From Heptranchias perlo (taxonomy: Eukaryota), in NCBI RefSeq assembly GCF_035084215.1, contig NC_090358.1, positions 23,436,001-23,500,000 on the forward strand: 64,000 nucleotides of DNA, given 5' to 3'. The notes below the pieces were generated by a model. It saw only the letters and a program-made list of their open reading frames with translations. It was not told the DNA's origin and made no database searches. A program made the position numbers and the translations under genes. Below are positions 27,656-30,760 of the stretch, in pieces; the first letter of the stretch is position 1, and each line of letters begins with the position of its first letter.

Positions 27656-28924
27656 TTGAGTGAAAAACATTAGGGATGTCATAGGACTGCTGCTTCCAGA
27701 TGAGCATTTGTGATGTCAAAAAGAAAAGACACTTTGTGTGGCTTTCGAGTGTGTGTACGAGGCAGGACAACTTAATAGAGTGGGCTCACTGGACTGCAAG
27801 ATGAGCAATTCTATGCATATCATGATACTGGAAATCTGTGGCGTGTGTCTTTTTACCATCACGCGGAGATATTGCTCTGTAACTTTAAACGCTGACTTGT
27901 GGCATCCATTTTTGGCTCCAAAGGAAGTTACAATTTATAATTGCATAACCCTTTCATTTCAAGTCTCTTTTATAATGCATGGAAATTATTAAAATGGGCT
28001 TCCGTGGCTTTTATGGTCTGATTTAATCAATCTTATTTATGGTTAACTTCAGTCTTGAGGTTCTTTCCCTTTCTTTCAGCTGTCTAATCACGATTATCAT
28101 CATGAGATCCAATGAATGAGAGCCTAACCGCCTTCCAATCACCAAACTGGCCATACAGTGGTTGGTTGTTATAGATGATGCATAGTACCTTGCTGTAATG
28201 TGACTGCAGTTGCAGCTGTTTTGGAACAATGATTAGCACTATGTCAGAGTAGGGATGCTGTGCTTCTACTGGTTTCCATAACTCTTTCCGGGACATTGCT
28301 GCCTACCTGTAGCATTTTGCTCTTGGCTTTCCTCAGCTGATCAATCACAGTATTGATTTGAATTAGAATGTCATTATTGCTGTCCTGTCGAGTCTCATGA
28401 TTGACTTCTCTTACTGCCACATTACAGGAGCTTTGAATTTAAGGTTTGATCAGCACTTGCTAATAGTAAAACTGGTTTGTTCTTTCTGATTTTGTTTTGC
28501 AACATACAGAACATACTGTAGCAATTATTATATTAATCAGGATACAGTGCTCGCAGCCAGCAACCAATCACTGCTATATTCCTACTTTACTATGCACTGT
28601 TTTGATCTTTGTGATTAAAATATATTTAGATGCTGCGTTGGTAAGCAAATTGTCAAGTCAACTTCAAAGTTACTGATTTTGTCTCAGAACATAAAAGTAG
28701 AACAATTTGTGTAGAAAATAACAACAGACTATTTATATTTATCACTAGACTGGCTTTTCTTAGCCCTCCAAAGATGGATTAATGAAAGTTAACAACATGT
28801 GAGTAAAGAGTCCTTTTTGCTTTTTAGGGCCTTTATATCAGGGAGATGTGCACCATTCTCTGCCACTCTGAGTATCGTAAACAATTTTACAACACCAAGT
28901 TATAGTCCAGCAATTTTATTTTAA

Positions 28925-28965
28925 ATTCACAAGCTTTCGGAGGCTTCCTCCTTCCTCAGGTAAAT
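28925..28965 (-). ncRNA. Minimal type I hammerhead ribozyme (identical copy on the minus strand)
   Basis: Exact reverse complement of 28970-29010. Confidence 0.78.
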
Positions 28966-28969
28966 GTTG

Positions 28970-29010
28970 ATTTACCTGAGGAAGGAGGAAGCCTCCGAAA
29001 GCTTGTGAAT
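28970..29010 (+). ncRNA. Minimal type I hammerhead ribozyme
   Basis: ATTTAC (stem I) - CTGAGGA core - A - GGAGG/AAG/CCTCC (stem II) - GAAA - GC - TT (cleavage predicted after 29004) - GTGAAT (stem I'). Stem III is reduced to palindromic AGCT. Confidence 0.8.
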
Positions 29011-30760
29011 TTAAAATAAAATTGCTGGACTATAACTTGGTGTTGTAAAATTGTTTACAATTGTCAACCCCAGTCCATCACCGGCATCTCCACATCATGA
29101 CTCTGAGTATCAATGTTTAACTCCAGGTCATCCCTGGTGTTACGTCAAAGTGTGCCTGTTTGCTAAGCCTAGTGTCATTGTAAGCATAGGGGAAGGCCTG
29201 GGAGCAGCCCTAATATCTACTCTGTTTGCCAGAAAAATACCTGGCACATATGTTGGGGGCAGAGGAGACAAAAGGAAAAGAAAAAACGTTGATTTGAAAT
29301 AGGAATCAAATTACTGACTCTTTTATTCAACTTTAAACACAACTGGCCAGCAGTGGCGTATGAAAAGGGTTGCAAACATTTTCTAACACCTCCCCAGCTG
29401 TGGACCGCTGCAGAACATTTAGGGTTTTTTTTGACACTTTATTTTGCAGCAGCAATAAGAATTTCACACTAGACATTGTGAGCCTTTAAATTCAAGAGAA
29501 AGATCTCACACCACTTAAATTAATTTTTAAAGTGTTTCTGGACAAGTTTTTTTTTCTCAAAATGTTCTCAAATTGTAATTGCCTAGTGATTGATTTAGTC
29601 CATTTCACTCTGAACTATTTCTTCTACATCATTCACCTGTTGATTGCATTTGGATATCTGAATCTCTGGTATAGTCAGATTTCAAAATTGTATCTTAAGG
29701 TATCAAACTCTGGCACTTAAAAACTGAATGTAATTTATCCAGTTTGAGAGTCCAGGACCTTAATCCATATATTTTTTTTTTAAAAATTGCATCATTTACT
29801 GTTTTCATTAAAAGGGACAGAAAATCCAGCAGGAGTCCTTTTATCTCCAACGTACTCCCTCATTTTCAGAAATGGTAATCTGAGCAGGAGATGCAGGTTT
29901 TGCACTGTACTGTTATTTCCCTGGAAAATGTATCTTACAACCTGAAATATTAAATTAAAAAAGAATGTAGTACATCAAACTAGTTTGATCAGGTTGCTAT
30001 GTAGAAAATACATCATTATCTGTGTTGAACTTCAAAACATTCTAAATGAGGACAACCTCTAGGTGCCTGACCACATGCAATGCCTCGTAGGTAAAGTGGA
30101 ATCATTTTCTGTTGGCTTTCAGCCATTTTCCACTACAGCTGTGCATTCCACAGCTGGATTTATGCTGTTAAAGGATCATTATTGCAGATGCTTTTGTGAT
30201 CGACTGATATTTATGTATTAGCACTATCGCAATCTTTTTCAGAAGAATCGCACATTTCAAAAACATGCATTCCTGTTTTATTAGCAGTTCGTGAAAACTG
30301 AGCAAACACGGGTTTCTCACATTATTCAATCAATTTTAAATTTCGGGCCCATTGCTCTTACAAATACAAATTGAGTGGCTGGTTTTTTTTTCAACTAAAA
30401 AATTGGTGTCCAACCACAGGTGGGGTGCCAAAGAGACCGTGATGATGGAATGCGAATTTTTGCTGTATTTGTAGTGCAGTTACTGTTAAGAACAGTGAGA
30501 GGGGACAATGCTAAGTTATACCGTATATTCGTACTACTCTTTGCGGAACTTTACACACGCCTTCTTAAACACATATCTCGAGCTCCACTCACAAGTGTCT
30601 GAATATTGGTGATGTTTTTAATTTTACTGAACAGCTAAATGCTGCCATTGAATATTAAAGATGGGTCCCCCTGGGAGCTTTTAACATTTTTAAGTTTTAA
30701 AACTTCACCTTGCACTAGTTGTTGAAGCCACTCACAAAGAGTGCCCCTAAAATCCTACAT

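What the first reader, a model, noticed from the sequence alone, without database searches (positions are those of the whole stretch)
28865..29111. Young palindromic mini-retroelement encoding a hammerhead ribozyme on both strands, inside the endophilin intron
Seen: a 223-bp insert with an exact 12-bp TSD (ACTCTGAGTATC), made of two perfect 89-bp inverted arms around a 4-nt loop. Each arm carries a complete minimal hammerhead: stem I ATTTAC/GTGAAT, CUGAGGA, 5-bp stem II, GAAA, palindromic AGCU stem III and cleavage triplet CUU. Known: Penelope-like element termini carry minimal type I hammerheads that cleave as dimers, and PLEs often insert with an inverted terminal copy. Inference: the coding region is entirely absent, so this is a ribozyme-only unit. 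Zero arm mismatches and an intact TSD imply a recent event. In host pre-mRNA the sense ribozyme is preceded by its perfect antisense, so the 89-bp hairpin should mask it. That hairpin is also a candidate ADAR/Dicer substrate and a DNA cruciform.
Basis: partly seen in the sequence, partly recalled or inferred. Interest (0 to 1): 0.7.

Follow-up and report, generated by a model that had tools for sequence, protein, structure and literature searches.

The report
Penelope retroelement hairpin stub in intron
This 223-base DNA hairpin in an endophilin intron is a real but ordinary stub of a very abundant Penelope-like jumping gene, likely built on the spot from two back-to-back copies of the front end of the element's RNA, and not a ribozyme-only element that spreads by itself.

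Summary
Observation confirmed: 12-bp TSD, perfect 89-bp arms, a minimal hammerhead on each strand, inside intron 1 of an endophilin-A3-like gene. The interpretation needs correcting. The arms are the pLTR/leader of a Neptune-type Penelope-like element with intact 902-aa RT + GIY-YIG copies elsewhere. The hammerhead 32-mer has 15,804 exact hits in the genome, but this hairpin's junction occurs once, so it is a one-off insertion product, not a mobile mini-family. The '4-nt loop' is a junction (92-nt and 130-nt arms, one untemplated base), and the extra 41 nt is the known PLE tail, ending at the ORF's ATG. In 69 sampled head-to-head pairs, 62 had one tailed and one tailless arm and none had two tails. 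In 25 of 38 tight short pairs the longer arm stopped 27-32 nt after the element's TATA-like box. Likely mechanism: two target-primed reverse transcriptions on one RNP that run off the transcript's start and are joined. Architecture and opposite-strand hammerhead pairs are published; the run-off reading is inferred. This scan reached the same reading at other loci of this genome.

The parts
28865..28876 (.). Target-site duplication, left copy (12 bp)
   Evidence: 12-13 bp is the family's mode, 48 of 70 pairs
28877..28968 (-). Tailless arm, 92 nt: element positions -130 to -39 (A of the ORF's ATG = 0); its 5' end lies 30 nt after the first T of the subfamily's TATA-like box
   Evidence: 60 of 60 upstream bases match long copy L002
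28925..28965 (-). Minimal type I hammerhead, antisense to the host gene
28969..28969 (.). One untemplated base at the head-to-head junction
   Evidence: gap 1; junction unique in the genome
28970..29099 (+). Tailed arm, 130 nt: element positions -127 to +2; its 5' end lies 33 nt after the TATA-like box
28970..29010 (+). Minimal type I hammerhead, sense to the host gene: stem I 28970-75/29005-10, core 28976-82, extra A 28983, stem II 28984-96, GAAA 28997-29000, palindromic stem III, predicted cut after 29004
   Evidence: sequence, fold, stems kept across subfamilies; activity untested
29059..29099 (+). 41-nt PLE tail, on this arm only; ends with the ORF start codon (29097-29099)
   Evidence: the same sequence runs straight into the 902-aa ORF in L065, L072, L084
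29100..29111 (.). Target-site duplication, right copy; its first 3 bases also match ORF codon 2 (microhomology at the priming end)
10837..10881 (+). Coding exon 1 of the host endophilin-A (SH3GL3-like) gene; the insert lies about 18 kb into the following intron
   Evidence: splicing not shown by RNA

Best explanation
The insert is a truncated head-to-head insertion of a Neptune-type Penelope-like retroelement, likely made by two target-primed reverse transcriptions that started from both cut ends of the target and likely ran off the 5' end of the element's RNA. Shown: family identity, abundance, unique junction, one-sided tail, 12-bp TSD, clustering of arm 5' ends near TATA+30. Inferred steps: (1) the element is transcribed from a TATA/Inr promoter in its pLTR, starting about 130 nt before the ATG, just upstream of the hammerhead; (2) the GIY-YIG endonuclease makes a 12-bp staggered cut; (3) one 3'-OH primes at the ATG (tailed arm), the other about 40 nt upstream (tailless arm), on the same RNA or RNP; (4) when priming is on the first pLTR of the transcript, both cDNAs end at or shortly before the RNA's 5' end, giving 90 and 130 nt; (5) repair joins the two cDNA ends head to head. 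The hammerhead is a passenger because it lies between start site and priming sites. The stub has no promoter or ORF and is predicted to be a dead end; in host pre-mRNA the hairpin would mask the ribozyme.
For: Arm sequence is continuous with an intact 902-aa ORF with RT (Pfam RVT_1, E 2.5e-10), YIDD, a C-x4-C-x2-C linker and a GIY-YIG-like motif; tandem unit 3,081 bp. 15,804 and 65,027 exact hits of two arm motifs, controls 0; junction 1 hit. Of 69 pairs: 62 tailed + tailless, 3 tailless + tailless, 0 tailed + tailed, 4 other. 3' ends are bimodal near -37 and +1, like the two in vitro initiation sites of the anole PLE (PMC11167929). Of the 62, both arms short 51, both long 11, mixed 0 (Fisher p 2e-12). 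Partner arms differ at 1.4 versus 4.6 sites across pairs (54 pairs). Longer arm ends at TATA+27..32 in 25 of 38 tight short pairs; the median shifts with the TATA box, -131 versus -137 in two subfamily groups, both +29/+30.
Against: No transcription start was measured; only contigs were available. No cap-derived G is seen at putative run-off ends, 13 of 54 versus 13 of 60. Over all 141 short arms the TATA-relative scale is only modestly sharper than the absolute one (50 versus 42 in the best 4-nt window), and 22 arms end upstream of +27. D. virilis Penelope has a TATA-less internal promoter (PMC2377424), so a TATA promoter is not general. Arm similarity could come from later gene conversion or one dominant master copy. 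Breakpoints depend on best-of-44 reference choice. The sample is from the first 16 Mb of one contig and about half was chosen by the hammerhead motif.
Confidence: 0.65

Rival explanations
1. Same element, but the hairpin arises by fold-back: one cDNA (or an antisense RNA) self-primes and copies itself back, and the endonuclease trims one end to leave a one-sided tail.
For: Explains identical partner arms and correlated lengths and short junction overlaps, -1 to -6 in 27 of 70 pairs. Self-priming on an antisense template is proposed in PMC3846280; endonuclease resolution of the tail in PMC8557442.
Against: A tailed-first fold-back needs the tailed arm to be the longer one; it is longer in 31, shorter in 26, equal in 6 of 63. 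Single tailless arms with a TSD exist (16, against 18 tailed, of 83 unpaired arms in a loose search). An antisense template does not predict ends at the sense TATA+30.
Confidence: 0.2
2. Arm 5' ends pile up because reverse transcriptase stalls at an RNA structure just upstream of the hammerhead, not because the RNA ends there.
For: Ends cluster within about 10 nt of hammerhead stem I; absolute and TATA-relative scales fit almost equally over all short arms; no cap-G signal.
Against: The peak moves with the TATA box by about 6-7 nt between subfamilies while the hammerhead stays fixed; an Inr-like TCATTT sits at TATA+27..32 in several subfamilies.
Confidence: 0.1
3. One reading: a self-propagating ribozyme-only mini-retroelement (retrozyme-like) that moves as a hairpin unit.
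For: Clean TSD, perfect arms, no coding sequence; many look-alike hairpins in the genome (52 of 69 sampled pairs are short).
Against: Exact junction single-copy; junctions vary between loci; no promoter in the insert; retrozymes are direct tandem repeats (10.64898/2026.07.22.740005).
Confidence: 0.03
4. Assembly or library artefact (fold-back chimera).
For: Perfect palindromes can be artefacts; no read spanning the locus was available.
Against: Exact TSD of the family's modal length, one-sided tail and an untemplated junction base match dozens of other loci.
Confidence: 0.02

Closest known systems
Complex insertions of endonuclease-bearing Penelope-like elements: 5' truncation, adjacent inverted 5'-truncated copy, 30-40-bp one-sided tail (PMC8557442, PMC3846280; passages read)
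   Same: Head-to-head inverted copy, one-sided tail, TSD, partial-tandem full-length source copies, tail overlapping the ORF start.
   Different: Here the whole insert is only two leader copies; tail 41 nt, TSD 12 bp. The passages read explain the inversion by self-priming or endonuclease resolution, not by twin priming with run-off at the start site.
Minimal hammerheads of metazoan PLEs (PMC4209133; results and discussion read)
   Same: Type I core, extra base between positions 9 and 10.1, palindromic stem III, thousands of dispersed copies; that paper already reports pairs 100-700 bp apart on opposite strands and ties them to truncated PLEs.
   Different: This pair is closer (cores 16 nt apart) and forms one perfect hairpin; no Rfam model matches it.
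Poseidon element of the green anole, PAc (PMC11167929; main text read)
   Same: Two internal RT initiation sites bracketing the tail; both target strands cut and extended; protein predicted as a dimer; hammerhead cleavage not needed for insertion in vitro.
   Different: PAc is Poseidon-type with hammerhead and tail inside the ORF start; here both lie upstream of the ATG and the ORF has the Neptune/Nematis cysteine linker.
Non-LTR retrozymes (10.64898/2026.07.22.740005; introduction, part of methods and passages read)
   Same: Non-coding, PLE-derived, type I hammerhead.
   Different: Retrozymes are direct tandem repeats defined by two consecutive hammerhead units; this is an inverted single-event product.
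L1 twin priming (recalled)
   Same: Second target end primes a second cDNA, giving an inversion within a TSD.
   Different: In L1 the two segments do not overlap; here both arms copy the same stretch from two fixed sites about 40 nt apart.

Membership tests
EN+ Penelope-like element (source family) | Single ORF with RT and C-terminal GIY-YIG endonuclease | tested here: met
   902-aa ORF without stops; RVT_1 above cut-off; VYLIRC...YIGET at 791-809 by motif scan; Pfam gave no GIY-YIG hit
EN+ Penelope-like element (source family) | Tandem or partial-tandem copies forming pLTRs | tested here: met
   3,081-bp tandem units in L071, L082, L084; partial tandem in L065
EN+ Penelope-like element insertion | Inverted 5'-truncated copy head to head, one-sided tail, TSD | tested here: met
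   window copy and 62 of 69 pairs
Neptune/Nematis clades | C-x2-5-C-x-x-C linker between RT and EN | tested here: met
   C753-x4-C-x2-C; definition from PMC8557442
Neptune clade | RT phylogeny groups with Neptune rather than Nematis | not tested
   no tree built; Neptune preferred because it is the clade reported in vertebrates (10.64898/2026.07.22.740005)
Minimal type I hammerhead of PLEs | Conserved core, extra base after A9, G10.1-C11.1 pair, palindromic stem III, stems I and II kept | tested here: met
   sequence and fold; stem II kept through G-C, G-U and A-U versions and stem I through wobble changes in the five commonest variants, 77 of 151 motifs
Minimal type I hammerhead of PLEs | Self-cleavage as a dimer | not testable with these tools
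   indirect only: 108 arms begin at the predicted cut against 36 at a control position 3 nt upstream, confounded by junction microhomology
Rfam hammerhead families | Covariance-model match | tested here: not met
   no hammerhead family at E up to 5 in 27000-31000
Non-LTR retrozyme | Direct tandem repeats with a hammerhead in consecutive units | tested here: not met
   arms are inverted
Self-propagating non-autonomous mini-element | Many dispersed copies sharing one internal structure | tested here: not met
   junction has 1 match genome-wide

The most novel reading that the evidence does not exclude
These stubs are genomic footprints of the Penelope integration reaction: one RNP primes both target ends at two fixed sites 40 nt apart on one RNA, and priming on the first pLTR yields only start-site run-off copies. 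That single rule would explain the one-sided tail, the inverted pLTR, the flood of short hammerhead-bearing fragments and why active copies must be tandem.
Probability: 0.5. Interest if true: 0.6.

Novelty: new member of a known kind. Interest (0 to 1): 0.25.

Why it matters
The locus itself is one of thousands and likely neutral. The family statistics matter more: how Penelope-like elements make inverted ends and tails is open in the papers read, and a young family with tens of thousands of arms and intact ORFs makes the twin-priming and start-site run-off model directly testable. It also warns that paired hammerheads on opposite strands in such genomes are insertion by-products, not ribozyme elements.

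Tried and rejected
DNA search of the arm in the own genome returned nothing because very common words are skipped; patterns were used instead. A gapped pattern for a genome-wide hairpin count was not accepted, so no genome-wide hairpin count was made here; shares come from the sample. Rfam gave only sub-threshold miRNA-like hairpin hits. No RNA holder was listed on record; contigs of four guessed-RNA runs hold the element but cannot show starts, strand or level. No contig covered the flanks next to the insert, so no empty site, editing or polymorphism could be read; the left flank has no second close copy in the assembly. Ribozyme cleavage as the main cause of short arms was rejected: 517 matches for arms truncated in the -96 to -87 zone and 108 at the cut itself (both patterns catch only part of such arms), against 15,804 intact hammerhead motifs. 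A cap-derived G was sought and not found. Unconstrained cofolding of two hammerhead copies did not give the dimeric stem III; uninformative. Sequence look-up of earlier scan notes found nothing.

Full report
Observation. The sequence is as described. A 12-bp direct repeat (28865-28876, 29100-29111) flanks 223 bp. Arms 28877-28965 and 28970-29058 are perfectly complementary and fold as one helix, z -24.9. The hammerhead motif occurs once per strand, against 0 expected, and a descriptor scan finds no other in the window. One arm alone folds stems I and II around the core. Rfam gives no hammerhead hit, only sub-threshold hairpin matches. The host gene is an endophilin A: coding exon 1 at 10837-10881 (found with a recalled motif), BAR exons on the same strand beyond the window, best solved-structure match SH3GL3. 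The insert is therefore in a first intron of about 107 kb, with the tailed arm in sense; splicing is inferred, not shown.

What it is. A 32-mer spanning the hammerhead has 15,804 exact matches in the 3.25-Gb genome and a 28-mer from the arm's 3' part 65,027; reversed controls give 0. Following these copies upstream leads into an ORF. L065 holds an intact 902-aa frame with RT (Pfam E 2.5e-10), a cysteine linker and a GIY-YIG-like motif, and L071, L082 and L084 hold 3,081-bp tandem units. This is an endonuclease-bearing Penelope-like element of Neptune type by the linker; no tree was built. The 41 nt present on the right arm only run directly into the ORF's ATG in full copies: the PLE tail. Against long copies of its subfamily the left arm covers -130 to -39 and the right arm -127 to +2, with one untemplated base between them and a 3-base match of the TSD to ORF codon 2. 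The exact junction occurs once in the genome, so the hairpin has not been copied as a unit.

Family sample. I fetched 140 loci from the first 16 Mb of contig C1, merged to 116 stretches. With the window they held 223 arms: 70 head-to-head pairs and 83 unpaired; 210 arms and 69 pairs after dropping local duplicates by flank (a few near-duplicates from one tandem array may remain). About half were chosen by the hammerhead motif, which excludes arms cut inside it. 3' ends are bimodal near -37 and +1. Of 69 pairs, 62 have one tailed and one tailless arm, 3 two tailless, none two tailed, 3 read on into a tandem copy and 1 is unclassified. TSDs are 12-13 bp in 48 of 70. Among the 62, both arms are short in 51, both long in 11, mixed in none. 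Partner arms differ at 1.4 sites per 80 nt against 4.6 across pairs; 22 of 54 are identical, so zero mismatch is usual, not a mark of exceptional youth. Four of 81 tailed arms are identical to the window's right arm over 127 nt.

Why the stubs are this size. Long copies carry a conserved TATA-like box at -158 to -171, by subfamily. Short arms peak 28-31 nt downstream of it. Of 141 short arms, 59 end at +27..32, 22 further upstream and 60 further downstream; in the part not chosen by the hammerhead, 26 of 66. In tight pairs, where the partner arm bounds the end, the longer arm stops at +27..32 in 25 of 38, and the median moves from -131 to -137 as the box moves. The window's arms stop at +30 and +33. 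This is where an RNA polymerase II start is expected (established knowledge), and an Inr-like motif lies there in several subfamilies. Against: no start was measured, no cap-G excess, only a modest gain of the TATA-relative scale over all short arms (50 versus 42 of 141), and D. virilis Penelope is reported TATA-less (PMC2377424, passages).

Mechanism. PMC11167929 (main text read) shows in vitro that an anole PLE protein cuts and extends both target strands, initiates at two internal sites that bracket the tail, is predicted dimeric and does not need hammerhead cleavage. With the counts above I infer that both ends of a 12-bp staggered cut prime on one RNA or RNP, one at each site. If this happens on the transcript's first pLTR, both cDNAs run off after 90-130 nt and are joined head to head; long copies need priming on a downstream pLTR of a read-through transcript. 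Fold-back self-priming (PMC3846280, passages) explains matching arms but predicts a consistently longer first arm; the tailed arm is longer in 31, shorter in 26, equal in 6 of 63. Gene conversion or one dominant master could also make arms alike; this was not excluded.

The ribozyme. It has the features of PLE minimal hammerheads in PMC4209133 (results and discussion read), which also reports opposite-strand pairs and low activity only as multimers. Stems are kept by wobble and compensatory changes among subfamilies. Arms that begin at the predicted cut are rare: 108 matches against 36 at a control position, with many of the 108 explainable by junction microhomology. That is weak support for occasional cleavage, not the cause of the stubs. 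In host pre-mRNA the antisense arm is made first and the full hairpin is far more stable than the hammerhead fold, so masking is predicted. Editing, dicing and cruciform formation were not tested; no empty site was seen for lack of cover.

Novelty. The architecture is published (PMC8557442, PMC3846280, passages; PMC4209133). It is not a retrozyme as defined in 10.64898/2026.07.22.740005 (part 1 and passages). I did not find twin priming with start-site run-off proposed for PLEs in the listings or in the texts read; older subscription reviews and all supplements were not seen and may hold it. After stating my reading, I found that this scan had reached the same one at several other loci of this genome (unchecked notes, not independent support; they call the organism a shark). 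Verdict: real, ordinary member of a known kind; interest 0.25, carried by the family-level mechanism.

Noticed in passing
window 29014-29019 and element position about -83: An AATAAA hexamer 9 nt after the predicted hammerhead cut is kept in 210 of 215 sampled arms; a possible poly(A) signal upstream of both priming sites, and in sense within the host intron here.
   Followed up: partly
L065:2376-6104: Complete example of the family: inverted tailed 490-nt copy, partial pLTR, intact 902-aa ORF, tailless end, TSD.
   Followed up: yes
L071, L082, L084: Near-identical full-length tandem arrays (3,081-bp unit), some with intact ORFs, in the first 4.5 Mb of C1; L071 is a 3-kb by 6-kb head-to-head palindrome. 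Suggests current activity.
   Followed up: partly
L010/L011, L076, L091, L106: Some pairs hold 25-60 nt of unrelated or simple sequence between the arms (captured filler at the junction).
   Followed up: no
L076-L081 (C1 3.93-4.02 Mb), L018, L043: Stubs inserted in simple tandem repeats were then amplified with the array.
   Followed up: no
window 12583-13108 and 14875-15210, minus strand: Fragments of an older, different Penelope-like RT (50% over 38 aa to the L065 protein), split by a LINE insertion.
   Followed up: partly
window 31369-34547 and 61949-63754: Two GC-rich stretches with long frames that look like Harbinger-type transposon genes (Myb/SANT-like and transposase-like, recalled).
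   Followed up: no
window 29438-29935: A contig from another organism (run X15) matches three pieces here, and the flank 28711-28833 has a 71% match on C13: possibly conserved or old repeat sequence beside the insert.
   Followed up: no
G000: A small class of arms begins exactly at the predicted hammerhead cut, and another folds at the AT-rich palindrome just downstream.
   Followed up: partly
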